64,000 bases of DNA from Moniliella sp. 'wahieum' (GCA_003971905.1 RSEE01000112.1:1-64000), one strand, 5' to 3'; shown: positions 1 to 43,202, counted from the stretch's first letter. Notes: generated by a model from the letters alone, not told the origin. Program-made: numbers and translations.

Positions 1-190
1 AACCCTAGGGGAGGGCCCGAGGGTAGTAGCGAGCTACCCGAAGGGGAGAGAGTTATGCCGAGGCGATAGCTCGCTATAAAATCGTCCGCTCTATGCAGCA
101 TATGCCCTCCGTTTCTCGATTGGACACCCGTTGACAAGTTACACCCCCCATCCCTAACCCTACCCAAACCCGACCCACAACACCCACCCT
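1..190 (+). repeat. Terminal module A: telomere-like start (AACCCT), inverted repeats and degenerate CCCTAA tract
   Basis: Window starts AACCCT. TAGCGAGCTA (27-36) and TAGCTCGCTA (67-76) form an inverted pair. CCCTAACCCTACCCAAACCC lies at about 152-171. Positions 61-189 align to 14527-14650. Confidence 0.75.
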
Positions 191-404
191 CCGATGGATG
201 TGATCATCTATCCAAGTGCATGCATGAAGCGCTTGACAAAGTGGGACAGTCGTTGTTAGGTTCGCCTCAAAGACCCACGACGGTCGTCGTCATTGTACGC
301 TTCAACATCTATGGCAGGTGTCGGATGCTTCTGGGGTGCATGTACTAGAGTTTGAATGATGGTATGCATTGCTATGTTCCTATACATGCTGGATGTTCAA
401 GACG

Positions 405-810
405 GGGAGCAGAGGCGTGGAGATGGGGAGCAGAGGCTTGATGGGGAGGCGCAGGGTTGGTGGCGAGCACAGGCTTGGGGGTGGAGAGCGTGGGGGGGGG
501 GCGCATGCTTGGAGGTGATGAGCACAGGTTGGTGGCGAGCACAAGCTTGGGGATGACCAGCACAGGCTTGGTGCCGAGCACAGGCTTGAAGATGGGGAGC
601 ACAGGCTTGGGGATGAGAAGCACAGGCTTGGTGGCGAGCACAATTTTGGCGATGACGAGCACAGGCTTGGAGACGATGAGCACAGACTTGGAGATGATGA
701 GCACCGGCTTGGTGGCGAGCACACGCTTGGGGAGAGAGCGCAGGCTTGGACATGATGAGCACAAGGTTGATGGCGAGCGCAAGCTTGGACGCAACAGAAA
801 GAGCACGACG
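405..810 (+). repeat. Subtelomeric minisatellite, 18-21 bp units with core GAGCACAGGCTTGG
   Basis: Many tandem degenerate copies of gagcac(a)ggcttgg followed by ggatga or tggc. Confidence 0.9.
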
Positions 811-1041
811 TGAACTGGCCCATGGGCTACTCGAGTTTGAGCATGGCCCCGACGAGCGTTGGGATGGAGGCAATGACGAGGGAGAACGGAAGGATGAGAG
901 GAAGAACGCTGGTACAAGAGCGGGTCAGATTGAGGCAGGGTGACATGGGATGGAATGGAGTGGGATGGGATGGGATGCGTACCGATGCGCTGAACGACGT
1001 TGCACATGGCCCAGACGGCGGTTGGGATGAGCATCTCAAGC

Positions 1042-1995
1042 AGGGTGACAGCAGGGGCAGCCAAGCGAGTGCACATCGGCCGGCAAAGGTTCGGAAGGGG
1101 ACGGCATGGCAAGCTGCACGGTCTGCTGGGACGGGGGCGAGGCAAGTCGGTACATGGCCGAAACGAGCTTCCACATGGCCAAGCCAAGCGCCCAGACAGC
1201 CAACGCAAGCGCGGCAGCGGTGGCAGCAGGCGAGGCATGCACAACGCCATGCACCATCCCATGCTTCCGCTTGCCTGACCCGACGGTGGCGATGGGCGAA
1301 TGAATGGAGATGGTGGCCGAGTCAATGGCGGAGATGGCCTGGGCGGGTGGGAGGTAGGAGCGCGGCGCTGGGACGGGTCGGGAGGCAGGGGACGTGGGAA
1401 AGAGCGCCGGGGTGGCGGGCAGTACCTGCAGAGACCCAGAAGCTGGACAGAAGACACAGAGGCGAGAGGGTCAGTAGAGGGCCGGTGTGTGGCAGATGAG
1501 GCGCGGGAGGCACCGAATGGGGGAAAGGAGGCTCAAAACGAGGGGTGTGAAACGAGGCAACAGACCTTGGGGGGCGGGCAAAGCCAGCCGGGTTGGGGGG
1601 GGGGCGTGGTAAGAAACCAACCGCATCGGTCGCCAGGCCAGGTCATACACCCGCCCCTGCCTGAACCAGTTAAAATCTGAATTGCACCGATGCATGGGGG
1701 GCTGTGCGCCGTCACATTGGCTCGGCCGCCACCGATTAGACCTACGCGCTACCACCACCTACTCGTCCAGCGCCACACGCCCGTTCTCCATCATTGTGCG
1801 ATGCCTTCCCCTGCCCCTGTGCGCGGCTGAAAGAGGACGCCTGGGGCACGATACGCCACCATTCATTCTCATACCCACCCAGAATTGGTGGTGCACCGAC
1901 GCTGTTTGTTCGAACCGTGCGCCGTCCCGACCCAACCTGAGCCTTTTGTAAGTGGTCTGACCTCAATTCTGGACCCATCCAAAAGCGTATCGTCT
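1042..1995 (+). repeat. Module B, copy 1 (about 0.95 kb direct repeat left of the recombinase-helicase gene)
   Basis: Begins AGGGTGACAGCAGG and aligns to 11528-12510. The core is near-identical (e.g. gggtggcgggcagtacctgcagagacccagaagctggacagaagacacagaggcgagagggtcagtag). Confidence 0.9.
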
Positions 1996-2299: not shown

Positions 2300-5200
2300 T
2301 CAGTCCGACGAGATGGAGATCGTGTCGGGGGACTGGTGTCTGAAGTCGCTCCAATAATCGTCACTGTTGAAGCGGCTGTCGGGCGGACTGGTGATGCTGT
2401 AGGTGTCACTTGTTTCCAGAGAATCACACTTGTACTGGAATTGCTGCTCCATGAAGTACAGGAAGCCGGCAACGAAGAGCGAATGTTTGGCAACCCTCTG
2501 ATCCCCAAACACCAAGGGCACCACCAACTCATTCCAAGCCCACTGTGTACGGTCACAGCTCTGCCCGGTTTTCAGCTTGAGCTCACAGGGAAACGGTACC
2601 GATAGCGGCCTGAGGTGGTCACGCACCCGCGCCCAAATGATCAAGAAGTCTGGCCGCGACAAAGTGGACAGCGCCGCCAGCACGAGAGGAATCAATCGTA
2701 TGCACCTCGAGTCCGAGGCCATTGCTTGATCGCAGGCGGTTTTGGGGGCTGTGCCTTGCGGTGCCCCTGCCCCCCTGCAAACCTGAACCTTGCTCAATTC
2801 CCCCTGCAACATCGGAACGCGCAAAGGCCAAAAGCAGCCATAACAAGTTCCATGCTTCGGGGCACGGAGGTGGCGCCAAGCGATGCTGGCCTGTTCTTCC
2901 AATGAGGCAATCCGGGGGCAATTCCCAATCGTGTGGCGCAACCAATCCGTACCTCCCGAACCAAAGTCTCGCGCGAAACAGAGTGGGCAGCACGCAGAGT
3001 CGATCGTGTCTTCCGGGCGCACGACCATTTCATACTGGGTAACCAGACGACCAAGTTCGGGAGGGAGTGACCTTGCACATTTGCTTTTGACCCCCGGGGA
3101 TCGGCACACGTGTTGTTGACAGGGGCTCTTTGGTGCGCGAACTCTTTGTACCTCCTCAGCATCCCGAGTCATCCGTGTCTGCCGGCCAACGGCCTTTTGC
3201 CCATCACGAGGCAAAAGGGGCAGTTTCGACGGGCCTGAAATGTCTACCCCAGCGCGCCCGTTGCGAACCGGGGAAAGGGAAGCGCCTCCCGGCAAACGGG
3301 AACGGTTCTGTCGAACGGTTCTCGGTGGCTGCTTTTGCTGTTGCTGCTCGTGCGTTGTACGCCTGCGCTTCACTCCCTCGTCATGGCCCGAAGAAGTGGT
3401 GGATGGGCGAGCGCGTTTCAACCGCTCGTGCTCCTTGTGCTGCGGCCTTGGCTGCTCGGGAGAGGGAACAACCGGAAGCGCAGAGGCACTGATGAATGAT
3501 GTGCTTGCTGAACTGGGGCGTGTGGTTGCCGCCCTCGCCGAGGTACTGTCCAGAGGCCGTGGCAGTGGGGTAGTAAAACTCGCATCCCCAACAAAGCAGC
3601 ACGGGCGTTGCAGTCTGCATGCAGTACAAACCTTGCGCCCTCCACATTCTCACACCGAATCGCCTTGCCGTAGAGGCAGATGTGCACAGCCTCCATCAGG
3701 CAAGATGCGTTTTCAGCCAATGCGCCACAACCCCACGTACGTCCGACGCTCATCCGTGCTAGGCCGCTGAGCCTGGTACGCTACCTGGCTTTGGGAGGCA
3801 AGAATGATCATCTGACCTTGCTGCCTTGGGCCTCGCGCGGCCCGGCCGGCTGCTTGGATCAGATCCAGACCGGTAAAGGGAATGCCGACCCAGATCACCT
3901 TGTCACAGTCCGGCACATCCAAGGACACGGCCAGGGAACTGGTCCCTACCAGAACAACCTCGTCCCCGCGTACGAATTTGGCAAGGTCTTCTGCTCCCTC
4001 CTCTTCCTCGGCACCGTGGCTTTCGCCTTCGTCCAACGTGTCCGATGCAGGCCGGGGGGGGAGGTAGTGCTAAAAAGCAAAAAACAAAAGGCAAAGGGTG
4101 GGGGTTAGAAAACAACCTTAACGTCAAAAAGGGGGGTAACAGAAGACGTACGGGTACTCCCAAGCGCTTTGCAATGCTCCTCGTTTGCTGGCGCGAATTG
4201 GTGATCACGATCGCGCGGGGAGGGGCGGGTGGATGAGAAGGGCTGTTGAGCCATCCCTCCCGCGCCTTCAACCGCTGCGATAGGATCCTTACCAAAGTTT
4301 CCTCAACCCCGCCCTTGTCTGGCTTTTGGTACACATACTGCACCTCCGGGCGGGGGCAACATGGATTGTGATGCGAGAAGTGAAGCGTCCCTTCTGGCGA
4401 CAACATCCGCTCCAGCTCTTCGACGATCCCTCGCGGCGCAGTGGCAGACAGAGCCAGGAGGCGTGTATGAGGGAGAAGATTCGAAAGATAGCAAAGGTCC
4501 TCAAACTCGCGCCGAAAGTTGCGTTGCAAGGGAATGAGATGCGCCTCCTCCAGCACAATGCGCTCCAGACGACCGCGTTGGGCCAGCGCACGCAGCATGT
4601 CCACCAAGGGCTTGTGGGCGAGTTGACTGACTGTTGCGAGCACCACACGAGTGCCTGGCCGGAGCTGAGGAACCTGTGGGTAGCCACCCGCCAAAGTGCC
4701 CTGCCAGCACTCATACAGGATATTGTGCCGGGCCAAGCGTTGCTCAAAGTCGGCAATCATACTGTGCAACGGCACCACAATCAATTGTACCATCTCAGCC
4801 TCAGCAGTCATGGTCGGGATGAGCCACATGGCCGTCTTGCCTGCGCCCGTCGGCATACACACCATCGACGCCGCCCGAGGGGTTGGAATAAGATGTGGTG
4901 GAGACAAAGAAGTTGCGTATCGGTCAAACCGCAGGTGCCATACAGCCGCACGCCCAACTCGCGTACTTTGGCCAAACGCGTCCAGGGGGTTGCGGCAAGC
5001 AGGCGCGCAGGCGTTTCTGAGCGGAGGCTGGTTGGAAGCGCAGACAGGGAAAGTTGTAGCACATTTTCTTGCCAGTCCCGGCTTACGTGCTGCGCAATGG
5101 GAAGCATGGCCAATTCGAGGTACCCAATCTGGTGGGCGCTTCGACCGTAGGCCAAAGTAGTGGTGCTTGACGAATGGCCTGCCTGGGCGGCCTGACCATG

Positions 5201-8200
5201 CCATGTCACCGTGCGCTCCCAATCCATCGGTTGGTAGCCCGCGGGCCCACCCTGCTCACTGCCACCAGATCCACCCGAATTGGTTGTAGGGTCCGCGAAC
5301 CCCTGCGCCTGTTCCAGTAGGGCCCGCGTGCGTTGTCCTTTGGATAGGGCGGAACAATATTGGCGCCATGACCTCAAAGTCAAAACCGGAGCCACAAGCT
5401 CGTTGGGCCAGTTGGCACGCAGAGCACCGTTGAGGTGGTCCGTCGTCAGCTTGCCCGATTGCGCAGTGACAAAGAGCTGGGGTTGGCAAACTGGCACGGC
5501 ATCTGGGTTGCGTGCCAGCTTCCGACGCAGAATATCGGTAGCCGGACGAACGAGGAGCAGGTAGGCCTTGAGGACATGTGCGGTGGTAGGATCAGGAAAG
5601 CGGGCCGAGCGGAGGGCGGCTTCTGGGCTGCTGTACATGGACGTCTTGCTCCGCCGTAACACCACAAAGAGGTCGTTCCCGGCAATGTAGATGCTGCGCT
5701 CGCAGGATAGCTCATTGATGCAACGCACATCAAGCGTCTCTACGCCGCGTGCAGAGACCCCAGAGCAGACATGGATTGCCAAAGCCAGCTGAATGAGGAA
5801 CGCCTCTTCGAGGTGGAGGACAGACCGGCCCAGTACCAGCTGGTCGTCTTCGTCCATCCTTTCCGTTTCGACAATTTGCGCGAGAACAGAGAAAATGTCG
5901 TGACCTTGTACCAGCCGGCGGTTCTCAGGCTCGGTCGCAAAAGAGTAGTTCACGGCCTGGTTGTTGAGCGTGTCTTTCAGATGCTGATCGTGAAGGGAAT
6001 GCCTTCTGAAGACATGCCCATACTCTTGCTCGCGCCCAACGGTGAACAACTTGAGAAATGCACTCTCCAGTCGGGCAAGGACCGTACTTGCAAAAACATG
6101 CAGTTCGTGGTGCGGAACCACCATCCCATTCGGCCACGTGGTCTGGTGCGACTGGTAGAAAAACAAGCTGTCGCTCTTCAGCTCCGCGCGGGCCCGGCTG
6201 GCATACTGCAGCACGCGCGCAAATTGCCCAGCGATCCCAGCCGAGTCGGCCACAACATAGTTGCTCTGATAGTCGATCAGTTCCGCCCTGGCACGGATCG
6301 GGTCCCGCAAGGCGGGCTCGGTCAAGGAGCGCAAATGAAGCGAGGCAAAGGCCGACAACCGCAAGCACCACATTAACCCAGCCATGAACGGAGACACATG
6401 TCTAGGCGCCCTGAAAAGCAAGCAAGGCTGGCCATGGCGTGGCCCTTGGGCCGATAGGATTTCCACTCCTTCGTCTTTCCATTCCTCGTCCCCGTCGGCA
6501 TCCTCTTCTCCGTTCAGGCAGTCATCCAGGCCGGTATTCTCCTGCTCCTCCATAATAGTGCCAATACCTGGAAGGGATACAGGCATGTGTTGTTGATCTT
6601 GCCCCATCGCCAAAGGGTCTGTGGCAGGCCGATGCCAAATGCCAAGGCACTTGCTAAAGGCAAAGAGCCAGACCGGGCCAACATTCTCCAGCGCTGGCAT
6701 CCAGGGTTGCTTCACCACCACATCCAGCCAAATCCCAATCGCTTTAAAGGATGGTTCGTTCTCAAAGAATTGCGCAGCCCCTGCGGATCAGTAGGGAAAG
6801 TTTGGGAATCCCTACTTCTGAGAAGACCCCTAAGGAAATTCTTGAGCGGGTCCCGGACGGTTTCAAGCCCAGCCTCGCGCAATGCATTTGCAAATGCTTG
6901 CTCATGGCTTGCCAAAACCGTTGTGGCAAGAGCGGCAAGAGGGTGCTCTTCGGATGAACCAAGCGAGGAGCGAAAGGCGACCAGGACGCGGGTAAAAACA
7001 AGACAGTCTGCGAGATTGGATGTGTATTTCTTGAGTGTTGAAAAACGGACGTCCAACCCGTTCCTTAGTACCCTGGCATCTGGGCCAACGAGCCAGGGAG
7101 GGGCAGGAAATGCTGTACATTTTGGTACTTTCCAGCAATCCGATGGCCCACGATAGCAATATCGATGCAGCCTGTCGACGCTGCCTCCGCATGGGAGTAA
7201 GGTGGCTCACCTCAGCCAATTCCATCAAAGGAACACCTTCGAACAGCCGAGTAACGTGCCACATCCGGGGCCAAGAACCCATTATGTGCTCTTCATCCAC
7301 GACACGCGTCAAAGGATCAGCCCCTGGGATGTGCGGCTGCATAGTTGCCGGATCGGCTTCTTGGATCTCAAACAAACCCCTCAGAGGCCCTCGTCTGATC
7401 CGTCCAAGGTCGTTTGCCTGGCCAAGGCCCTGCTCACCCACATGGGCCGGACGGGGGGCAGCTGGAAGAGCCGGCCGAGTCTGGCCGGGACCCAGTGGAG
7501 CATCAACCTCATTCGGGGACACCTGAGCGGATTCCGATGCACCTACACCCGCACCACGACGCGCCCCGCGGCCGCTGCTTCCAGCCTCGACCGCGCGAAC
7601 GCGATTTTCAATGGGTTCGAGAGCATTCTGTTCCTCACCGTCCTCCGGCTGGTTGCTGATAACCGCATCGTTCCTAGGACTCGCAAAGTCAACCGTGGCG
7701 GGGGGGTTAGACAAACCCCGGATGCTACCATCGGCAGGCAAGATGGCACGCTTGATACCGTGTGCCAAATATTGCGTTGGCAATGGAAAGTTGACGTATC
7801 GATGGCCGAACGAACGTTGATGCTCTTCCTGCGTCTCGCGTGAACCCAAAAACCGCCCACACTTCCCGCACGCACTTTCGGGAGAGCGAACAGGCACCCT
7901 ATCCACAGGCTCCGTAAGAGGTAAAGGAAACATATCCTCCGAAGGTGTGCGTGGTTGCATGTTTGTGGGCATGGCACGCACGAGTTTGCGGGCCTCTTTG
8001 CCCCGCACCGAGGTAAGGATGGCGTGGCTTCCATTTTTTGCGGTCGTCGGGGCCCTGTGCAAATGGGATGGAGCAACATACGATTCACACGCTTTACAGA
8101 AGAGGAGGCGCAGGCGGTCACAATACACCAAGCCGACCTTTTCCAGGGCATGTTGCAGGTGGATCAAAGGGTTATTGTAATTGCTAGCAGCAAGGAACGA

Positions 8201-8967
8201 CTTGAGATCGAAGCAGTTTTGCGCATGGTTCCGAATCCTTTTGGGGTTACGGTGAGAGTAACTGCATCCAGGACACGGGTACCCTGGAAAAAGTGTCTGT
8301 AAGTTAGCACCGAGAGGAGGACGAAGAGGGAGGGGGGGGGGGGGGGGGCAGGCACGTACCACCGCGCTCCTTTAAATCGATGATAAGATCGATTGGGTCT
8401 AGCCGCTCAGACAGGATTATCGTCACCTGAATCTGATTTGAGCCATCCCGGGGAACTTTTGGCTTGGATCCCAAGAGAACTTCTTGGATCCACCAGGCGA
8501 GCTAGGGGGACCAAGTATGGGCATCCTGACCCGGGGCCGGAACGGGAGCTAAGCCAGGCGGGGGAGACAGCGGGCCCGAAAGTAGGAGGCTGAGCACGAG
8601 CAGCCTGAGCCGGGGAGGCATCAGGGACGGCCGGGGGGGGACCTACCGGACCAGGCGGAGCAGCCTCAGCAGGGGCAGGATGAGCGAGGCCCGGCGGGGG
8701 AGACTGCGAACCAGCCCGAGCAGCCTGAGAATTGGCGGCAGGAGCGAGGCCCGGCGGGGGAGACTGCGAACCAGCCCGAGCAGCCTGAGCGTAGGTGGCA
8801 GGAGCGAGGCTCGGCGGGGGAGACTGCGAACCAGCCCGAGCGGGCTGAGCAGACGGCGGAGTAGCGGCCGGACGGGCAGGAGGCGTCGAAGGCATCGGGG
8901 ACGGGGCGCGTGGTGAATGGGCAGGATTGCCGCGGGGATTGTGGGCGGGGATGGGAGAAGTGGACAT
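2300..8967 (-). CDS. Telomere-linked RecQ-like helicase fused to a tyrosine-recombinase domain, with Cys/His zinc-binding regions (frameshifted in this assembly)
   Basis: N-terminal C2H2-like and DUF3505-like segments (LFCKACESYVAPSHL; CGKC...H...H). YR motifs SGVSARGVE, RSKT, LTLRSWRQ, QAGHSSSTTTLAYG. SF2 motifs MPTGAGKT, LEEAH, LSAT, GTSSLAVSLD, QAAGRAAR. C-terminal CPLC...H...C and CYGC. GT-AG introns with CTAAC branch at 8297-8359 and 4070-4151. The start at 8967 is inferred. Confidence 0.85.
8680..8850 (-). repeat. 60-bp tandem repeat x3 (codes AARAGSQSPPP.LA in the putative first exon)
   Basis: gagcgagg(c/t)..ggcgggggagactgcgaaccagcccgagc recurs at 8682, 8742 and 8802. Confidence 0.9.
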
Positions 8968-10738
8968 GGTGGGATGCGGTTGGGCGTGAAGCACAGTGCG
9001 ATGGGGGGGGGGGCGGGGGAAGGGGGGGGGGGGGGAAGGGGGGGGGAAGGGGGGGGGGGGACAGGGCAAGGATGCGTGGGTTAAAGAGTGGGCTTGCTGG
9101 CTGGGGCAGACCCCCAGGCCAGCTGGCGCCCATGCCGGCTGGTGCGTCCCCCCTGCGGGAAGGTGCCGGGCAGCGGCGAGGCTCAGGTGCGGTCCCGGGC
9201 AGCCAGCGGCGAGGCTCAGGTGCGGCGCCCACGCCGCCAGCAGGCCGAGCGCATGCCAGGGACGATGGTGGTCAGGCAGACCAACAGGCACGAGCGGCAC
9301 CGCTGCGCACGGCCCCCGGCACATGGCACCCATCACCCATCACCAACCCACACGCTCACCGCTCGCCTCACCGCTCCCTCGGCGCGGTGGATGATTTCTT
9401 TCCGCCGGCCTGCCGCGGTGCGCTTGGCCTGTATCCTGGCGCCCCTTGTCTGCTGTTGACCACCACCGTCGTTACCCCCTGCACCCATCGCCCCGCCTGG
9501 CCCGCCCAGGAACGCACCCACCGTCGTTGCCGATCCCCAACTGAGCGCCTGGCCCAGGCACCACCCAGCCCAGACTCGGCACTGGCCACGGTGCCAGCAG
9601 CGTTCGAGGGCCCGCTATGTTTCCGCAACGAAAGCTCACCGCAGTGTGCCCTGCTCTGATGTGGAACATGGGTCGGATCCACACACTGCATCCCCCAACA
9701 CATCTTTCACGCCCGTGTGGTGGCAGCACACCTTCCTGGTCTGACACAGATCGTTATGCAGGTAAAACCTGGGACGGCTCGGCGCATCAGGGTTCCAGCT
9801 CCTGGCTCTGCCCTGCCAGCGACTGCAAACACAAACCAAGACCGCTGAGCGCCCTCGAGCAAATCCACACCTCAGTCGTGTTCACATCCTACCCCAGCTC
9901 GAGCCAGCCCGAGTCCGCTGGTCAGGCCCGGACCAGAATCAGACACGGTTCAGGCGCCAGTCTGATGATCCATGACCCCACCCAGGTCGAACCAACCCCC
10001 TGCCCCCCACCCGTAATCCTGCCCTCCCCTCTTCTGCCATCCACAATGGGGTCTCGTACGTAGATCCAATGACCATCTCCGTTGTTGCCCTGATCGCCGT
10101 GTCCACCCGAGCCACAACATAAACAAGTCGCATGTTCCAGCCTAGTGGCACGGCGCACACCCTGGCGACACCATCGAGCTGGGCCATAAATCAAACCCGG
10201 CAGCACCTGACCCAACGGCCAGCGCGACACCCAATGAGAGTCAGAAGGAGAGAATCACAGACGAAAGATTGGCGGATGCAGTGGCTGACGCCCTCGCCGC
10301 TCCAGGGGAAGAACCAGGCACGGGGGATAAACAGCACGCTGGCTCATCAGGTGGTGGAGAGAAACAAAGATGAGCGGCTTTCGCTACCCGTGGGACCCAA
10401 AGCACCCCCCCCCCGCAAACACAGGCCTAACGGCAAGGTGGAAGAGACAGACTAGCCTCTGCAAAGGCCATAGCAGATGGCGCATGTCGAACGCCTTGAC
10501 ACCGGAGGAGGACGAAAAAACAAGTGCTGGAGCAAAGACAAGTATCCGGGTGGAGGCGGTAAGAAACAGGATGCGACGCAAATTGACACAGAACGCAAGC
10601 ATAGTATCGAGACAGGGACCGTGGCTGCCGCCATGAGTTGCCACTATGACACTAGTGATTGCATTGGCCAGGAACGGGCCTACTGTCGTTGCCGATCCCC
10701 AACTGGGCGCTCGCCCAGGCACCACCCAGGCAAGAGTC

Positions 10739-11527
10739 GGGACTGGACACGGCGCAAGCAGCGTTGGAGGGCCGGCTATATTTGCTCAGGGCAAGCTCAG
10801 CGCACTGGTGTGCACTGTCCTGATCTGCAGCATGCATCGAAACACAGTTGGCATTTGCACCCCCAGGCCCACCCGGCAGTACAGCAGGGCCGCACTTTTG
10901 CAGTGAATCCCAACCGAGCTGGACGAAGGCCTCACCGGTAACGCACGTGGATGCGGTCGCCTGTCGGGCGTACCATCGTCACCAAACCGCGGCGTCCACA
11001 GCGCGTCGCATGTCACACACCCATTGTAACCCACCTCACACGTACATGCAATGCCCCATCCCGGTCATGCCACCGCGGTTGCACTCTGGCTCCCCCCCGC
11101 ACGGAACATTCCCGCCCGGACCCTGTCACATCCGTTGCCGCATGCGGCGTTAGCGTGTGTCATGTCACATGGCACAGCGGTGGCGAGCGGCACATGCGGG
11201 TACTTAGTAAGTAGCCCCCATGCCGATCCTTTCGAGCTGGCACCCCAGGACACTGGCCCCGCACCAAACTGTCAGAGGTCACCAACCGTCAGGCACCTCC
11301 TTCGCCCTCCGCACGTTTCAGACGGGCCAGCGTCGTAAACTGCATTCCAGCACACAGGCCCCGCGCCCAAACTGTCAGAGGTCACCATCTGTCAGGCGCC
11401 ACATTTTCGCACTTACACACTGTGGTGCCTGACATTTTGCAACTCTGCAATTCTGAGACGAAAAACGTCATTTTCATAGAGAAAATCGACGGAGTTATGC
11501 AGTCCTTCACGTGAATATCTGATGACT
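10739..11527 (+). repeat. Module C, copy 1 (palindrome-rich putative element terminus)
   Basis: Aligns to 13502-14526 and ends ...GGAGTTATGCAGTCCTTCACGTGAATATCTGATGACT. Confidence 0.9.
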
Positions 11528-12510
11528 AGGGTGACAGCAGGTTCGCCAAGCGAGTGCACATGGGCCGGCAGAGCGTCCAAACGGGACGGCATGGCACGCT
11601 GCACGGTATGCGTTGGCATGGCCGAGCCTGAAACGAAGATGGCCAAGACGAGGACCGGATGGCCAAGCCAAGCGTCCAGACAACCAATCAAGCGCTGCAT
11701 GGTGGGGGCAGGCGAGGCTGTGACCATGGACGGCAGCAGGCATGCACCATCCCCTGCACCATCCATGCTTCCGCTTGCCGACCCGACGGTGGCGATGGCC
11801 GAATGAAGATGGTGGTGGCCGAATGAATGGCGGCGGTGGCCGAAGTCAATGGCGGGGATGGCCTGGGGGGGGTGGGAGGCAGGAGCGCGGCGCTGGGACG
11901 GGTCGGGGGGCAGGGGGACGTGGGAAAGAGCCCCGGGGGTGGCGGGCAGTACCTGCAGAGACCCAGAAGCTGGACAGAAGACACAGAGGCGAGAGGGTCA
12001 GTAGGGGGGTGTGTGGCAGATGAGGCGCGGGAGGAGGCACCGAATGGGGGAAAGGAGGCTCAGAACGAGGGGCTAAACGAGGCAACAGACCTTGGGGGGC
12101 GGCAAAGCCAGCCGGGTTGGGGGGGGGCGTGGTAAGAAACCAACCAGATCCGTCGCCTGGCCCGTGCATTCAGCCGCGGGCTGAAAATATTAACATTTGC
12201 AATTGCACCGATGCACGCGCAGCCTGCGCGGTCAGATTGGCTCGGCCGCCACCAAATCGACCAAGCCGCCACCACCACCAACGCACCACGCCACACGCCC
12301 GTTCTCCATCGCGGTGCATCGTCTTGCGCCCCACGCGTGCGCGTCTGAAAGAGACTACCTGGGGCACGCTACGCCACAATCGTGCTCTGAGTCCCAAATT
12401 GGTGGGGCACCGACGTTGTTTGTTGGGACCGTGCGCCGTCTGGACCGCACCTGAGGTAATTGGATGTGGTGTAACCTCAATCCTGGACCAATCCAAAAAG
12501 CGCATCATCA
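11528..12510 (+). repeat. Module B, copy 2
   Basis: Direct repeat of 1042-1995. Confidence 0.9.
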
Positions 12511-34846: not shown

Positions 34847-36499
34847 AGGCGCCCAGAAATAGATGTGAAAGGAAGGTATAATTAACACTGTTGGTCGAGC
34901 CTTTTTTTCTACCCTCCCTCACGCTCAACGTTCAATAAACTCCGAAAACGGAAACTAGAAATGAAGCGGGAAGGTCATACATGAGCGCATGAGCCAACTC
35001 CAACTGCATTGCCTGAAACGCCAGAGGGAGAAGAAGCTGATGATTTCACGGTGGAAGCAAGTGGAATGCAACGACACACTGCACATCCCCGCTTGTCTTC
35101 CCCCGGATCGTCGGGACGAGATACGTGCGGTACTATCGATTCCACAACGAAGATGGTCATCAAGCTGATTGGGAACGGGACGATCCTTTCTGAAGTATAT
35201 TCTCCTTGAAGACGGTTAAATCTTGATCGAATCGATCGCCATGTCTACTACACTGTCTCCTTCGTAGCTATCGTGTGCTATCCTCCGCTGTGGACCCAAT
35301 GACGTGCACCAGAGGGTCCTCTGACCTATGCTATTACCGGCCCCCTGGTTTCCTACATACGCTATAGTACCAGTACATCGCATACACCGAAGAAGCCTGA
35401 GCAAGTACCTAATACCCAGCAGTGTACTTGCTGCGTGAATGAGCTGGCAGTGGGACCATCGGTGGAATCCATGCGTGGATGCGTTGGCAGTGGAACCATC
35501 CGTGGAGCCCTAGGCTTTGTGCGGACCTGGTTCCCGTGGGAACGGGAAAGGCGTACTATACAGAAGGGAAGCGCACTTCCCTTGTATGCTCTCTTGTAGA
35601 CATGCGGGCAGAGCCTGGGCTCTGAGGAGCTGGGAGAAGGGTGTTAGCTCCCCTCTCCGCCCCCTGTCCGACGCGACGGTCGAGGGGAGGGAGGAGGTCC
35701 AAGTTTCTCCGTGACACTTTGGCCTCCGGCCGGCATAGGGAAAAGAGGGATGGAGAGGGAGAGGGAGAGGAGGGAAACAGCTGCATTTTGGACCATGACC
35801 AATTGGCTCGCTCTACGTTCCTGATACCTGTGCTCAATCTGATCAGGGCTGGCACCGATGCTGAAACCGACACCGACACCGACGCCGACAGCCAAGAGGA
35901 TGCAGCCCACACCCACGCGAACGGGGGCGGGAGTGTTGGGCGCGTTCTGACAACAACGACCTGCACGCAACCAACAGAGGGAGTGCCGTACTACAACAGT
36001 AGTGCCAGTTACTAGCCAACGTGGCCGCTACAGAAGCTCTCTTTTAAGTTCTTCTTAGCTGGGTATCGCAACCCCCGCAGACCGGAATCGCCTTCACCAT
36101 CATTTGCATGTCTGCTCGGGTATCCCTACGGCACAACTACTTATAGACGCATGCCTCTGAATCGATCGATGCCTCTGTGGGAGACATGCTCAGTTCTCAA
36201 CAGACCGTGGTTTTATCAGCATGGGTTATCAATTGGTTATGGCATCATTCCCACCCCCATACACACGCACTTGACATCACCGTAATCGTCACCAGAAAGA
36301 AGCAGCATGGTCTACTCACCGACAAAACGCAACCCAACAGTGCTTGTGGACAAACCGCGCATCTAGACACCAACCTGATGGACCACAGAACAGAGAGGAG
36401 AGCAAAGCAGCCCGCAGTTGGGCGTGTCAGCGCACCAGGGAAAAAAGGGGGGGGGGGAGGGGGGGGGGGGGGGGGGGTAGACGGTAAACCGAATTTCTT

Positions 36500-39151: not shown

Positions 39152-41670
39152 TTAGAGCTTGGACTTGCAGCAGTCGGGCTGCGTGCCGGCCGAAGCGTTG
39201 GCGGGGATGGACTTTTCGTCGCTGGTCGGGCGCACGTCGAGGAGCGGATTCCTAGTGAAGAAGCCAGTGGGCCGGAGATCAAACATGACCTTGTCCGTGG
39301 GCATCACGGGCGCTACACACACACACAGTCAGTCAGTCACAGCCCCACAACAGGGAAACAATGCAAAAAACGAGGTTGGGTGGGGGATGCGGTGGAGAGG
39401 GGAGGGGGACGTACCATCTTCTGGCCTGGGGATGTGAGTCAGGCCGACCTGGGCAAAGATGACAATGTCGGTATTGCGAACATTGTCATTGCCGTCGCCG
39501 ACCCAGGCGGTGATCGAGTCGGGGGGCGTGTCGGTGGTTTGGAACATGTTTGCCGGCGGGGGTAGAGCTGGTTTTCATGGTAGGGGAGGGTGAACCAACT
39601 GTGCTTGGCAAAGGGTGCGCGACGGGCAACAATCGAGTCGGGAGCGGCCCACAACTTGACTTGTGCGCCAGGCGCGACAAAGCGGTAGGCGACCGGGTAG
39701 CCCGACGCGTGGTGCTTGTGGTTCTCATTGACGATCGACCAGTACCGTTCCGAATCGTGGTCCGCGTCGCGCACCGCGTCGCCGGACGTGGCGAGCAAAC
39801 GCCGTTTAATGTCAAACGCGTTGCCAGCCCAGTTCATCCGGCTGCCCGTCGGGTGCGGCGAACGCTCAATGTGCGTCTCTACCACACTGTTCTGCGGACC
39901 GTCGAGGTGCGGGTCGATGCGCACACTGTCCAGGCGCAAACGAAGGCGGTTAGTCAAACGGACTTAAAGGGAACCCATACCGCGCGGGACACGCATAGGG
40001 GAGAAGAAGAACAAGGGTTCGCAAGGGCCACGTACCTGAAAATGTGCTGGTGCAGCTGCGCCTGGATCTGGGGCATGACCTCGATCGCATACGTTGGCTT
40101 TTCGCCCGGGGCGAGCAGGTTGAGGTTGAGGATCCCGTCAGGCCCACCTCGCAACCAAGGGTGCCGTCCATGTGGAGACGCCAGCCGACCTGAGGAACAA
40201 AAAATAAAAAACGTTAGCACACGTCCAAACTAGGGTAAGGAGGGGAAGAAGAGGAAAGGAAGATGCCCGTAGGTAACGTACCCGGTACTCGTAGTTGGCC
40301 ACGTGTACACAGACGAGATTTCAAGGATGCGTTGGCGCACGGCGGCGCCCTGGCCGTCGGGGCGGAAGTCGGTGTGTTTCCAGCCGAGGCCGCCGTCGAG
40401 CTCGTGGATGCAGATGGCATTCTTGATGACCTGCGGGGTTCCGTCGTGGGCGACAATGAGGCCGTCCATGTACTCGATGCTGCCGAGGCAGTCGCAGCCC
40501 AAGTCGAGCGAGTTGGAGACAGTGCCAGGCCATACTCGCCCACGTCAAAGGCAAACTTCTTGTAGTGGGGAAAGTCGGGGTGGGCATAGGGCACCACCAT
40601 CTCGGCCATGCTCACGCGCCAAAAGAGCGGGCGCTCAGTCGGGTTGGCCTTGGACGCCCCGGGCGCCTCATCGTCCTTGTACGAGATGGCCGAGAGCACA
40701 ATGCCCTCGCGCGGGTGGAAGGCGACGTGCAACTTCCACTTTTGCCATTCCAGCACGTTGCCCGTGCGGGTAAACGACACGCCTTCCGGCTGGACGACCG
40801 AGAGCGGCTTGAGGTCCTTGCGGAACTCGATCGGGGTCTTGCCGTCGGGCGCGGTGGCGCGGTCCGGGTGCCAGTCCGAGTGCAGACGCGGCGGGGCAAA
40901 GCGGGGCCGGTTCTGGGACTCGGAAATGTCCCATTCGGGGCCGTCGGGGGGCGGTGGTGCCACGGGAGGTGATGGTGGGCCCGTCGATGCGGAAGGAGGG
41001 TAGTCAATGGAGATGACCTTGGCGTCATTGACATCAATCACGGCGAAAAAGTCCATGGGGTGCGAGTAGTGGTTGTCGTGGTAGTTGTCAAAGCGGGCAA
41101 ACATCAGGCCCTCCATCAGGCGGCGGCCGGGCCAGCGAATGTCGTAGCCAATGCACCAGCCGTCGGCAAACATTTCCTCGGGCTTGATGCCGACCTTGGC
41201 GGCCTCGGCACAGCAGCGGGCGTCGTTGCGGACAATCTCCTCGGCGGAGATGATCTCCTCGGGGGTGAGGGCGGGCTGGACATGCTGCGGCAGGAGACCT
41301 CGCTGGCGACCTCGGGGGCCGGGGCCGAGGGCGGGAGGGTGACGACGACCTCCCAGGCGCGGGACTCGTAGCGGTCGAGGACGATGACCTCGACCTGGCG
41401 CTTGATGGGCTCGGTGGCGGGGGTGAGGGCGCCGCCGGGGAAGCGGATGGCCTCGATGACGGCGTTCTTGGGGGGCTCCTTGAGGTAGGCGTTGGTGACC
41501 TTGACGCCGCGCTTGCCCTGGCTGGCGATGTGCTGGGCGGCGGTCTTGGCTGCGAGCTCGATCTCGATGGGGCTGGGCGGGTCGAGCGGGTGGAGGTGGT
41601 CCCAGGAGCGGTGGAGGTGGCCGCTGGACGCGGGGGCGGTGACGTGCTGGGCGGGCGAGGGGGGCGCCAT
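39152..41670 (-). CDS. Copper amine oxidase, peroxisomal (C-terminal SKL)
   Basis: HPLDP, QPEGVSF, WQKWKLHVAFHPREG, EMVVPY, FDVGEYG, GCDCLG, TPQ motif NYEY (Tyr 40291-40293), HQH and HIPRPED. It has GTACGT introns and ends CCKSKL*. Confidence 0.95.
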
Positions 41671-42719
41671 GGTGGGGGTGGGGGTGGGGTAGAGGGAGGT
41701 GGGGGTGGCGGCCTAGAAGAAGCGGTGGGGGGGGGGGATATATACACGCCCAATGCTCCGTCGGAGCAGACTGGCCAGGCTTCGGAAGGACACTTCTGGG
41801 GCGCTGCAGGCGCTGGCGAGAAGTTCGGCAGATAATCGATAACCCTCCACCCGATAGACGCCGAGGCACTCTGCCTCGTCTGGGGCAAACCCTGCCGCAA
41901 CCGACAGCGTGCCTGGCCAGCACCCGTTCGGTGCAACGCCGGCGGATGCAGCAGCGCGGAGCGCGCGGCTATGGCGGTGATCCATCACCCACCGCGCCCG
42001 CGTCTCAGCCACGCAGCGCGCAGCGCATGCACACAGGCCCCCCGCCCTGCGGCTGCGCGCTAGCCGCTGGCTGACGTCAGCTGCGGCAGCGCCCCCGCGC
42101 GGCGCCGAGCACCCGCCGTCGTCGGCCGCACGGCGCGCGTGTCCAGGCGCCGTGCCATGCCGCCGTGCTGCTGCCCAGAGTAAGCAGCGCTCGCCGCGCC
42201 CAACCCTACCCGCACCGCCGCACGCGCCCACGCAACCCTACCCGCACCGCTGGGCACTGCGCCTGCATCCATCCCCCTCCATCCATCAGCAGTTGGTGCC
42301 CCCCTCGACCATCGACCAGCCCCCCCATCGCTCACAACCTGATCGCGCAGATAGCTGCGCTTCTCCTTGGCGCCAGCGGCCCGTCTTCGGGCCAACTCTC
42401 CGCCACATCTCCGTCACCACTGCCCCCGGACCACGCGGTAGTCCCGCTCGGCACCAGTCCGTACTTGGTGACTGCGCACATGCTGGCACTCGCACCTGCA
42501 TCACTTTGTGAAACACCTTGCCGCTCGCACCGCATCAGTCGACTGTCCTTCCGTACTCGCACCAGAGGACCAAATGAATACATTGAAGCGAGTCCTCCCC
42601 TCCTCGTCGTTCTTCAGCACCCAGTGTCCTACTACGCTAGCCCCTCTGAGAGTAGCAGTCAGCGCTCTCGACGGAGCCAGAAAAACGGACCACCATCCTT
42701 ATACAGCAACCATGGCATA

Positions 42720-42932: not shown

Positions 42933-43120
42933 GCGCCGGGACGGTACATGATGGGTCCCACGACTACTCATGCAGTGACGTTAAGCATTGGGCTGACGGG
43001 GCTCGCGGTAATCGGTTAACGGGGACCGTACGAGACGCAGTGGGTCTGGTTAGCGACACGACCACGACGCTGGGATCGCCTGATCGTTTTGCTCAGCAGC
43101 CCACAGCACTGCGATTTGGA

Positions 43121-43202
43121 TCCAATCCAATCCAATCCAATCCAATCCAATCCAATCCAATCCAATCCAATCCAATCCAATCCAATCCAATCCAATCCAA
43201 TC
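43121..43202 (+). repeat. (CCAAT)n microsatellite
   Basis: Visible directly in the sequence. Confidence 0.95.

What the first reader, a model, noticed from the sequence alone, without database searches (positions are those of the whole stretch)
2300..8967. Telomere-linked RecQ helicase carries an apparent tyrosine-recombinase catalytic domain: candidate self-mobilising subtelomeric element
Seen: upstream of the helicase Walker A (GKT at 4833-4841), the 637-aa ORF has residues in tyrosine-recombinase order. These are Arg in SGVSARGVE (codon 5747-5749), Lys in RSKT (5645-5647), Arg in LTLRSWRQ (5363-5365, the HxxR position without the His), His in QAGH (5174-5176) and Tyr nine residues later (5147-5149). 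Zn-finger-like regions flank both domains. Known: fungal telomere-linked helicases (S. pombe tlh, U. maydis USHER, M. oryzae TLH1) are usually described only as RecQ helicases. R-K-(H)xxR-H-Y is the catalytic set of tyrosine recombinases, including Crypton and Starship enzymes and protelomerases. Inference: this protein may be the transposase or resolvase of a telomere-targeted element, not a housekeeping helicase.
Basis: partly seen in the sequence, partly recalled or inferred. Interest (0 to 1): 0.9.

Follow-up and report, generated by a model that had tools for sequence, protein, structure and literature searches.

The report
Helicase gene with recombinase-like catalytic domain
A fungal-type subtelomeric helicase gene carries, just upstream of its helicase, a conserved domain that looks like the DNA-cutting core of tyrosine recombinases, which would give these enigmatic chromosome-end genes a testable enzymatic role.

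Summary
The 637-aa minus-strand ORF (4808-6721) has R325, K359, R453, H516 and Y525 at exactly the stated codons. They are not cherry-picked. Across the query plus 77 homologues, only 9 of 308 aligned columns are at least 95% conserved, and all five are among them, together with G321, E328, R342 and P393. His-to-Tyr spacing is 9 in 67 of 67, as in XerD, Cre and lambda Int.

AlphaFold models (pLDDT 78-79) retrieve tyrosine recombinases, topoisomerase IB and telomere resolvases as top Foldseek matches in PDB and BFVD. Scores are weak: best E 0.02, no hit at E<=0.001, TM 0.2-0.5. No sequence or profile method links the domain to a known recombinase family.

By position, the domain matches the function-unknown "TLH domain" of telomere-linked helicases. 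No paper found calls it a recombinase.

Mobility is untested. The window has one copy, no telomere array and at least four frame changes, possibly assembly indels. The recombinase-like domain is supported; the self-mobilising element is plausible but unshown.

The parts
6902..8362 (-). N-terminal ORF A (486 aa). Its OrsD/C2H2-like zinc-finger region covers residues 78-183, about window 7814-8131.
   Evidence: Pfam PF12013 OrsD, E 1.6e-7, above the curated cut-off. C-x2-C...H/C patterns start at residues 30 and 165. Colinear with P0001 residues 16-419.
6712..7065 (-). Linker segment read in frame -2, bounded by two frame changes (about 7065-7112 and about 6724-6832).
   Evidence: tblastn of P0001 gives a frame -2 segment at 7065-6832. 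Frame -1 has five stops between 6904 and 6790.
5855..6439 (-). Helical N-terminal part of the conserved module (ORF B residues about 95-289). It holds the conserved D250, G-Y-S-F and N267 and is a possible core-binding-like domain.
   Evidence: 30 of 66 hits align from query residue 94-111. The AF2 model is helical, with block pLDDT mostly 76-95 and dips to 60-65.
5027..5854 (-). Tyrosine-recombinase/topoisomerase-IB-like catalytic domain (ORF B residues 290-565). By position it equals the 'TLH domain'. Key codons: R325 5747-5749, E328 5738-5740, K359 5645-5647, R453 5363-5365, H516 5174-5176, Y525 5147-5149.
   Evidence: Residue positions. Conservation. AF2 pLDDT 79.1, pTM 0.77. Foldseek top matches are XerH, XerA, Cre, integrases, topoisomerase IB and TelK.
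4428..4892 (-). RecQ-like helicase ATP-binding lobe, read in frame -3 (ORF 3903-5222). Walker A GKT is at 4833-4841. A frame change from ORF B lies at about 4874-4892.
   Evidence: Pfam DEAD, E 6e-12. NCBIfam recQ_fam 2.5e-14 and DpdF 3.9e-18. tblastn overlap of the P0001 segments.
3713..4036 (-). Helicase C-terminal lobe, back in frame -1.
   Evidence: Pfam Helicase_C, E 2.5e-9. P0041, P0042 and P0007 align here.
2300..3421 (-). C-terminal ORF E (373 aa) with a Cys/His-rich motif at residues 144-168 (about 2918-2992). It has no known family.
   Evidence: No Pfam or NCBIfam match. Regex hit. P0007 residues 1142-1322 align to 3955-3461. Frame -1 stops at 3713-3715 and 3650-3652 lie after a GTACGT at 3735-3740, which may mark an intron.
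61..1994 (.). Flanking repeat blocks downstream of the gene. Y (61-189, holding CCCTAACCCTA at 152-162) and Z (1042-1994) both recur on the other side of the gene.
   Evidence: Self-blastn: 61-189 matches 14527-14652 at 89%, and 1042-1994 matches 11528-12509 at 79%. Telomere-like motif.
10727..14652 (.). Repeat blocks upstream of the gene: X (10727-11522), Z' (11528-12509), X' (13492-14524) and Y' (14527-14652, with CCCTAACCCTA at 14617-14627). This is a subtelomere-like patchwork with a period of about 10.5 kb.
   Evidence: Self-blastn. Sequence read. Motif search.

Best explanation
The locus 2300-8362 (minus strand) is one copy of a fungal-type telomere-linked-helicase (TLH)-like gene.

Architecture, from N to C terminus:
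- an OrsD/C2H2-like zinc finger;
- a helical N-terminal region;
- a conserved domain of about 280 aa;
- a RecQ-like SF2 helicase;
- a Cys-rich C-terminal region.

The conserved domain corresponds by position to the published 'TLH domain'. It is a highly divergent member of the tyrosine-recombinase/topoisomerase-IB ('DNA breaking-rejoining') superfamily.

Proposed chemistry (inferred): Tyr525 attacks a DNA phosphodiester and forms a 3'-phosphotyrosyl link. Arg325, Lys359, Arg453 and His516 stabilise the transition state and protonate the leaving group. Glu328 supports Arg325, as in XerD, Cre and lambda Int.

Proposed division of labour in the full protein (inferred): the zinc fingers target DNA, the recombinase-like domain cuts and rejoins strands, and the 3'-5' helicase unwinds or branch-migrates the joint.

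Most likely biological outcome (inferred): recombination between chromosome ends that copies or moves the TLH-containing block. That would make the protein the block's own recombinase. This fits the multicopy, presence/absence, unit-like behaviour of TLH regions in other fungi.

Shown here: the architecture, the residue conservation and spacing, and the fold resemblance. Inferred: catalysis, substrate and mobility.

As assembled, this copy cannot make one polypeptide because it has at least four frame changes. These may be assembly indels.
For: Residues and conservation:
- The five residues sit at the stated codons.
- phmmer against 1.84 billion representatives found 66 homologues at E<=1e-3. 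The best is P0001 (E 1.2e-70), which is colinear with the window gene.
- In the HMM alignment of the query plus 77 homologues: R325 77/78, E328 78/78, K359 78/78, R453 70/71, H516 65/67, Y525 67/67.
- Only 9 of 308 columns are at least 95% conserved, and these six are among them.
- Median spacing is R-to-K 34, K-to-R 90 and R-to-H 40. H-to-Y is exactly 9 in 67/67.
- XerD, Cre and lambda Int also have 9, plus E or D three residues after the first Arg.
- All 20 helicase-fused homologues keep R-E-K-R-Y. His516 is kept in 19 of them, and one has Arg there.

Structure:
- The AF2 models have pLDDT 77.6 and 79.1, both pTM 0.77.
- The topology fits a tyrosine recombinase. Arg325 sits before a short helix, Lys359 lies between two strands, and Arg453 is in a helix.
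- Foldseek against PDB, whole module: ranks 1-17 are all tyrosine recombinases, topoisomerase IB or telomere resolvase. XerH scores prob 0.99, E 0.022.
- Foldseek against PDB, catalytic domain: all listed rows from rank 1 to 25 are of these kinds. XerH scores prob 0.97-0.98, and 3nkh_B has TM 0.50.
- Foldseek against BFVD: 19 of the top 50 are named integrase, topoisomerase, tyrosine recombinase or VLF-1, including 4 of the top 5.

Other lines:
- Every named ESM Atlas neighbour is of the tyrosine-recombinase type: NDC10_II, Phage_integrase twice, Integrase_2 and DUF3435. Scores are 0.82-0.85, so these are leads only.
- hhalign against a 78-sequence XerD profile puts R325 on R148, R453 on R247, H516 on H270 and Y525 on Y279.
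- The architecture OrsD, then this domain, then DEAD and Helicase_C recurs in P0007, P0009, P0041, P0042, P0060 and others.

Literature:
- TLH regions occur as full and truncated units with interstitial telomere repeats (PMC12857005, passages).
- One Botrytis strain has 14 copies while two others have none (10.1101/2022.03.07.483234, passages).
Against: No statistically significant link to any known recombinase family:
- Pfam, NCBIfam and PHROGs scans of the query and of 32-44 family members found no integrase or topoisomerase model.
- phmmer and a family profile against all PDB sequences found nothing relevant at E<=10. The single-sequence search gave only a weak off-domain match to human CAD protein, and the profile search gave no match at all.
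- hhalign of the family profile against single XerD or Cre gave probability below 1%.
- hhalign against the 78-sequence XerD profile gave probability 0.24% and P 0.25. The catalytic register appears only in a non-significant alignment.

The structural evidence is weak:
- No Foldseek hit reaches E<=0.001 in either library.
- TM-scores are 0.2-0.5 and rmsd is 8-25 A.
- Tyr525 lies in a low-confidence loop of the model.

Other points against:
- The His of the canonical H-x-x-R is not conserved. Position 450 reads R24, Q13, S13, A10 and others.
- The R-to-H spacing (median 40) is longer than in XerD, Cre and lambda Int (22-23).
- Alignment A2 was built from members chosen because they carry G-H-x8-Y. 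The unbiased counts are those.
- There is no evidence of mobility in the window, which has one copy and no termini.
- There is no telomere array.
- Identity with the published TLH domain rests on position and architecture. No reference TLH sequence was available for direct alignment.
Confidence: 0.6

Rival explanations
1. Host end-maintenance enzyme rather than a transposase. The domain would act as a topoisomerase-IB-like swivel or a Holliday-junction/t-loop resolvase coupled to the RecQ-like helicase. This single-chain pairing would resemble RecQ-topoisomerase 'dissolvasome' or reverse-gyrase logic. It would serve recombination-based telomere maintenance when telomerase fails.
For: - The same conserved R-K-R-H-Y set serves topoisomerase IB. 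The variable residue at the His position of H-x-x-R is compatible with that, because that position is Lys in poxvirus topoisomerase (recalled).
- Foldseek lists bacterial topoisomerase IB 3m4a, human topoisomerase I, a giant-virus topoisomerase (H2ED76, prob 0.92) and the telomere resolvases ResT, TelK and TelA.
- S. pombe tlh genes are reported to be induced in telomerase-negative cells and to speed their recovery (10.1101/2024.02.27.582403, section 3, citing Mandell 2005).
- ResT combines tyrosine-recombinase-like chemistry with ATP-dependent unwinding (PMC5388405; title and abstract seen in the search listing).
Against: - The highest-ranked structural matches are site-specific recombinases (XerH, XerA, Cre), not topoisomerases.
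- The same domain occurs without any helicase in many short proteins, some with only an OrsD zinc finger, such as P0010 and P0017. That pattern resembles transposon-encoded recombinases.
- TLH genes are absent from some strains of a species (10.1101/2022.03.07.483234, passages), so they are dispensable.
Confidence: 0.22
2. The domain has the recombinase fold or motif but is not a catalyst. It would be a DNA-binding or regulatory module of the helicase, as the centromere protein Ndc10 uses a recombinase-like fold for binding only. Alternatively, the resemblance is convergent.
For: - No significant sequence or profile similarity to any tyrosine-recombinase family.
- Foldseek E-values are all above 0.01 and TM-scores are at most 0.5.
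- The nearest named ESM cluster is NDC10_II.
- The first His of H-x-x-R is missing.
Against: - The near-invariant columns are exactly the catalytic ones, including Tyr in 67/67 and the fixed 9-residue His-Tyr spacing. A binding-only module would not be expected to hold them.
- Domesticated recombinase folds such as Ndc10 are described as having lost the catalytic residues (recalled, not checked here).
Confidence: 0.13
3. This particular copy is a dead relic. Whatever the family does, the window's gene is a decaying subtelomeric pseudogene and does nothing.
For: - There are at least four frame changes without intron-sized gaps, relative to the colinear homologue P0001.
- Frame -1 has stops at 3713-3715 and 3650-3652.
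- The locus sits in a patchwork of diverged repeats.
Against: - The 637-codon ORF B is uninterrupted.
- The query carries the consensus residue at all 9 near-invariant columns.
- An unrelated copper amine oxidase gene 32 kb away also changes frame without an intron, at about 40522 and about 39545. This points to assembly indels.
- G or C runs of 4-8 bases lie in each TLH frameshift interval.
- The two stops may lie in an intron after GTACGT at 3735-3740.
Confidence: 0.4

Closest known systems
Telomere-linked RecQ helicases (TLH) of fungi and Monosiga: S. pombe tlh1/2, Magnaporthe TLH1, Ustilago UTASa, F. oxysporum TLH
   Same: - The same order of parts: an N-terminal C2H2-type zinc-finger region (OrsD here), a conserved domain of about 250-300 aa directly upstream of the helicase, and a RecQ-like helicase (10.1101/2024.02.27.582403, sections 3 and 12).
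- The gene sits in a repeated block with single telomere-like motifs. F. oxysporum TLH regions are described in a similar way (PMC12857005, passages).
   Different: - No telomere array is present in the window.
- The best homologue is only 38% identical.
- No named TLH protein was available for direct alignment.
- In the papers I read, the TLH domain has no assigned function, and TLHs are called host helicases.
Prokaryotic and phage tyrosine recombinases (XerD/XerH/XerA, Cre, lambda Int; Pfam PF00589)
   Same: - The catalytic residues come in the same order.
- Glu follows the first Arg by three residues.
- Lys lies in a beta hairpin.
- His-to-Tyr spacing is 9.
- These proteins are the best Foldseek matches.
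   Different: - No significant sequence or profile similarity.
- The His of H-x-x-R is not conserved.
- The linker before the His-Tyr box is longer and variable.
- The domain is fused to a helicase and zinc fingers.
Eukaryotic tyrosine-recombinase transposons: Cryptons and Starship 'captains' (DUF3435)
   Same: - They are fungal, multicopy and recombinase-encoding.
- Standalone family members pair the domain with a zinc-finger DNA-binding domain, much as Cryptons pair a recombinase with a DNA-binding domain (Crypton architecture from PMC9977147, passages).
- ESM neighbours include NDC10_II and DUF3435 clusters.
   Different: - No match to PF11917, PF16787 or GCR1_C in 37 scanned hits, in the 44 rows of A1 or in the window ORFs.
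- No element termini or target sites were identified.
- A helicase fusion was not found described for Cryptons or Starships.
Topoisomerase IB and hairpin-telomere resolvases (TelK, TelA, ResT)
   Same: They share the R-K-R-H-Y chemistry and fold class, have a telomere connection, and appear in the Foldseek lists.
   Different: - They rank lower than the Xer and Cre recombinases.
- There are no hairpin telomeres in this context.
- No sequence similarity was detected.

Membership tests
Tyrosine recombinase / topoisomerase IB superfamily | Catalytic residues R...K...(H)xxR...H/W...Y in this order, with a nucleophilic Tyr about 9 residues after the His/Trp | tested here: met
   - R325 77/78, K359 78/78, R453 70/71, H516 65/67, Y525 67/67.
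- His-to-Tyr spacing is 9 in 67/67, the same as XerD, Cre and lambda Int.
- Exception: the first His of H-x-x-R is variable.
Tyrosine recombinase / topoisomerase IB superfamily | The catalytic-domain fold | tested here: inconclusive
   - AF2 models have pLDDT 78-79.
- Foldseek top matches are almost only tyrosine recombinases or topoisomerase IB, with probability up to 0.99.
- However, the best E is 0.022, no hit reaches E<=0.001, and TM-scores are 0.2-0.5.
- Active-site geometry is not measurable, because model coordinates are not exposed.
Tyrosine recombinase / topoisomerase IB superfamily | Significant sequence or profile similarity to a known family model (PF00589, PF11917, PF16787, NCBIfam or PHROGs integrases) | tested here: not met
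   - No hit.
- PDB sequence searches gave no recombinase match.
- hhalign probability was below 1%.
Tyrosine recombinase / topoisomerase IB superfamily | A covalent 3'-phosphotyrosyl-DNA intermediate | not testable with these tools
   This needs biochemistry.
Telomere-linked helicase (TLH) family | N-terminal C2H2-type zinc motifs plus a RecQ-like helicase | tested here: met
   - OrsD, E 1.6e-7; DEAD, 6e-12; Helicase_C, 2.5e-9.
- recQ_fam, 2.5e-14.
- Zinc-finger motifs found by regex.
Telomere-linked helicase (TLH) family | [quoted passage not shown] | tested here: inconclusive
   A conserved domain sits in that position, and homologues share the same architecture. No published TLH sequence was available for direct alignment, and Rehmeyer 2009 is not held.
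Telomere-linked helicase (TLH) family | [quoted passage not shown] | tested here: not met
   - No telomere array.
- Only CCCTAACCCTA at 152-162 and 14617-14627.
- One copy in the window.
- The rest of the genome was not available.
Crypton / Starship (DUF3435) transposons | The family's own recombinase model, accessory domains, and defined termini or target sites | tested here: not met
   No PF11917, PF16787 or GCR1_C hit. Termini cannot be tested with one copy.

The most novel reading that the evidence does not exclude
TLH genes would be the recombinase-helicase genes of a previously unrecognised superfamily of eukaryotic DNA elements. This would include the classic subtelomeric helicases of fission yeast, the rice-blast fungus, smuts, Fusarium and a choanoflagellate. 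The elements would colonise chromosome ends by tyrosine-recombinase chemistry, as a 'Crypton-plus-RecQ' counterpart of the Helitron Rep-helicase. The short standalone domain-plus-OrsD proteins would be their non-telomeric relatives.
Probability: 0.3. Interest if true: 0.9.

Novelty: new variant of a known kind. Interest (0 to 1): 0.72.

Why it matters
Telomere-linked helicase genes have been known since the late 1990s. [quoted passage not shown]

Recognising the TLH domain as a probable DNA cutting-and-rejoining centre turns this open question into direct experiments:
- a single Tyr-to-Phe change;
- covalent-complex trapping;
- relaxation or strand-exchange assays.

It would also bear on three wider points:
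- how identical subtelomeric blocks spread between core and accessory chromosomes;
- how cells survive telomerase loss;
- the repertoire of eukaryotic tyrosine-recombinase elements, to which it would add a helicase-fused form.

In the searched library, no paper holds both 'tyrosine recombinase' and 'telomere-linked helicase', and no relevant paper pairs 'tyrosine recombinase' with the other subtelomeric-helicase terms searched. A 2025 paper on TLH-associated retrotransposons uses the word 'recombinase' 0 times.

Tried and rejected
Searches and comparisons that gave nothing or were not significant:
- Word-indexed homologue searches with ORF B, for both longer and near-length proteins, found nothing. 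The exhaustive phmmer search was needed.
The organisms and names of P0001-P0066 therefore stay unknown. The only name seen is Arthrobotrys flagrans DFL_001416 for P0067.
- phmmer and a family profile against PDB sequences found nothing relevant.
- Pfam, NCBIfam and PHROGs scans of family members found no integrase family.
- hhalign of the family profile against single XerD or Cre gave probability below 1%.
- hhalign against a XerD profile built from 78 sequences (E. coli XerD plus 77 of the 80 loci fetched; 3 loci with no ORF of at least 250 aa were dropped) gave probability 0.24% and P 0.25. The global mode failed.

Readings considered and rejected:
- Chlamydomonas Crypton and RecQ papers looked promising in the listing, but they concern unrelated genes.
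- A telomere at the window start was considered. The first bases read AACCCTAGGGG but no array follows.
- The idea that ORF A and ORF B are split by a single in-frame stop was rejected. Frame -1 has five stops between 6904 and 6790, and the homologue follows frame -2 there.
- Homopolymer context could not settle whether the frameshifts are errors. Runs are present at the TLH sites but absent at the two amine-oxidase sites.

Not checked or not available:
- Rehmeyer 2009 (Curr Genet) is not held.
- No eukaryotic genome collection was available. Copy number, element borders and the source organism therefore stayed unchecked.
- Supplements of the bioRxiv preprints (the TLH domain alignments) could not be seen.


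Full report
**What is at the locus**

On the minus strand between 8362 and 2300 lie five ORFs that belong to one gene.
- ORF A (6902-8362, 486 aa) has an OrsD/PF12013 zinc-finger domain, E 1.6e-7.
- ORF B (4808-6721, 637 aa) matches no Pfam family.
- ORF C (3903-5222) has a DEAD helicase domain (6e-12).
- ORF D (3713-4036) has Helicase_C (2.5e-9).
- ORF E (2300-3421) has no family.

NCBIfam calls the helicase RecQ-like (recQ_fam 2.5e-14, DpdF 3.9e-18).

The closest homologue, P0001, is colinear with the window from 8284 to 4149. It changes frame in the order -1, -2, -1, -3, with no intron-sized gaps. ORF D returns to frame -1, so the gene as assembled has at least four frame changes.

A copper amine oxidase gene at 39329-41968 also changes frame without an intron, at about 40522 and about 39545. 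Indel errors in the assembly are therefore a live alternative to decay. Homopolymer context did not settle it.

**Check of the observation**

- R325 is at 5747-5749.
- K359 is at 5645-5647.
- R453 is at 5363-5365.
- H516 is at 5174-5176.
- Y525 is at 5147-5149.
- GKT is at 4833-4841, in ORF C's frame.

With 52 Arg, 12 Lys, 24 His and 14 Tyr in the ORF, such a pattern could have been picked by eye. I therefore tested conservation.

**Homologues and conservation**

Two word-indexed searches found nothing. An exhaustive phmmer search of 1.84 billion representatives found 66 proteins at E<=1e-3. A later search around P0041 added 11 more.

Pfam scans show a recurring architecture: OrsD, then this domain, then DEAD and Helicase_C. 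Examples are P0007, P0009, P0041, P0042 and P0060.
- 10 of the 37 hits scanned carry a helicase domain, and 11 of 37 carry OrsD.
- Many short proteins hold the domain alone.
- Others hold the domain with OrsD only, such as P0010 and P0017.

A first MAFFT alignment used pieces whose ends I had cut with a G-H-x8-Y pattern. That biases the last two columns. I therefore built an HMM and aligned the full-length proteins. Of 78 proteins:

| Residue | Conserved / covered |
|---|---|
| R325 | 77/78 |
| E328 | 78/78 |
| K359 | 78/78 |
| R453 | 70/71 |
| H516 | 65/67 |
| Y525 | 67/67 |

The 11 proteins without the Tyr column all stop at or within 31 residues of the end of the alignment.

Only 9 of 308 query columns are at least 95% conserved: G321, R325, E328, R342, K359, P393, R453, H516 and Y525. 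The His-Tyr distance is 9 in 67 of 67.

In XerD, Cre and lambda Int, fetched from annotated records, the recalled catalytic positions carry the expected residues. The His/Trp-Tyr distance is also 9, and an acidic residue follows the first Arg by three. All 20 helicase-fused homologues keep the set; one has Arg at the His position.

The His of the canonical H-x-x-R is not conserved. Position 450 reads R24, Q13, S13, A10 and others.

**Fold**

AlphaFold2 was run with family alignments.
- Residues 95-590 gave pLDDT 77.6 and pTM 0.77.
- Residues 290-565 gave pLDDT 79.1 and pTM 0.77. Alignment A2 contains only members chosen for having the His-Tyr box.

The secondary-structure order fits a recombinase catalytic domain. 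Arg325 sits before a short helix, Lys359 lies between two strands, and Arg453 is in a long helix. The His-Tyr box follows a helix, although Tyr525 sits in a low-confidence loop.

Foldseek results:
- PDB, whole module: ranks 1-17 are XerH, XerA, an integrase, Cre, bacterial and human topoisomerase I and ResT.
- PDB, catalytic domain: all listed rows from rank 1 to 25 are of these kinds, with TelK added.
- BFVD: the list is led by phage integrases and includes a giant-virus topoisomerase and VLF-1. Of the top 50, 19 are named integrase, topoisomerase, tyrosine recombinase or VLF-1, and the rest are unnamed or unrelated.
- The numbers are weak: best E 0.022, probability up to 0.99, no hit at E<=0.001, TM 0.2-0.5, and large rmsd.

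ESM Atlas named neighbours are NDC10_II, Phage_integrase, Integrase_2 and DUF3435, at 0.82-0.85. At these scores they are leads only.

**Tests that failed**

- No integrase or topoisomerase model in Pfam, NCBIfam or PHROGs matches the query or any of 32-44 members.
- PDB sequence and profile searches found no recombinase match.
- hhalign of the family profile against single XerD or Cre gave probability below 1%.
- I built a 78-sequence XerD profile from one scan of genome contigs. hhalign gave probability 0.24% and P 0.25.
- The alignment it found does pair the first Arg boxes and R453 with XerD R247. With greedy extension it also pairs H516 with H270 and Y525 with Y279. It is not significant, and I count it only as consistent.

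**Context**

The window has no telomere array. CCCTAACCCTA occurs at 152-162 and 14617-14627, inside a repeat block (61-189 matches 14527-14652).

Further blocks repeat around the gene: 1042-1994 matches 11528-12509, and 10727-11522 matches 13492-14524. This is a subtelomere-like patchwork with a period of about 10.5 kb. Ordinary genes follow further in, including a copper amine oxidase, an ARID protein and a YiiM-like protein.

**Literature**

[quoted passage not shown] - A Botrytis preprint reports 14 subtelomeric copies in one strain and none in two others (10.1101/2022.03.07.483234, passages).
- Fusarium subtelomere helicase genes carry DUF3505/OrsD (10.1101/2023.02.05.527183, passages).
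- PMC12857005 (passages) calls TLHs host genes and shows TLH regions as full and truncated units with interstitial telomere repeats. It uses 'recombinase' 0 times.
- Searches found no paper that links TLH or subtelomeric helicases with tyrosine recombinases. The library lacks most subscription journals, and Rehmeyer 2009 is not held.

**Interpretation**

The residue set, its spacing, its near-invariance and the fold matches together make a divergent tyrosine-recombinase/topoisomerase-IB-type catalytic domain the best reading. I put this at about 0.75 for the domain itself.

What the whole protein does is inference.
- I favour recombination between chromosome ends that spreads the TLH block.
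- A topoisomerase-like or junction-resolving role in telomerase-independent end maintenance is the main rival.
- A non-catalytic recombinase-like fold is less likely, given the invariant Tyr.

The claim of a self-mobilising element is not shown by anything in this window.

Noticed in passing
window 39329-41968 (minus strand): The Pfam enzyme domain of a copper amine oxidase gene is split over several frames. Two junctions (about 40522 and about 39545) have no room for an intron. The window may therefore carry assembly indels in general.
   Followed up: partly
window 152-162 and 14617-14627: A single telomere-like motif, CCCTAACCCTA, sits inside a repeated block on both sides of the helicase gene, 14.5 kb apart. 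This resembles the single interstitial telomere repeats drawn between TLH regions in F. oxysporum.
   Followed up: partly
window 8593-8852: A 60-bp tandem repeat (4.3 copies, 79% matches) lies just upstream of the gene's 5' end. It falls inside a proline-rich ORF (8407-9336, minus strand) that has no family match.
   Followed up: no
window 25161-28270 and 30081-33155: A diverged tandem duplication with a period of about 4.9 kb (67-90% identity). An ORF inside it (24919-26034, minus strand) has no Pfam match.
   Followed up: no
window 372-1457 and 11688-11984 (minus strand): ORFs in the two copies of repeat block Z start with the same peptide (MSSVQLLGLCRYCPPP...). Block Z may carry a small repeated gene, or these may be chance ORFs in GC-rich DNA.
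   Followed up: no
window 3630-3750 (minus strand): GTACGT at 3735-3740 precedes the two frame -1 stops (3713-3715 and 3650-3652) that separate the Helicase_C ORF from the C-terminal ORF. A short intron may lie here.
   Followed up: partly
window 16460-16963, 34752-34847, 43120-43202, 58604-58874; GC 0.65-0.71 over 44-58 kb: A 181-bp satellite is present, along with long pentanucleotide microsatellites: (GGATG)n, (ATCCA)n and (TGCTT)n, the last with 54 copies. The window also has a very GC-rich stretch with codon-like triplet repeats.
   Followed up: no
homologues P0010, P0017, P0011, P0037, P0058: The recombinase-like domain also occurs without a helicase. In these proteins OrsD is placed either C-terminal (P0010, P0017) or N-terminal (P0011, P0037, P0058). 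This points to a wider family of recombinase-plus-zinc-finger proteins in fungi.
   Followed up: partly
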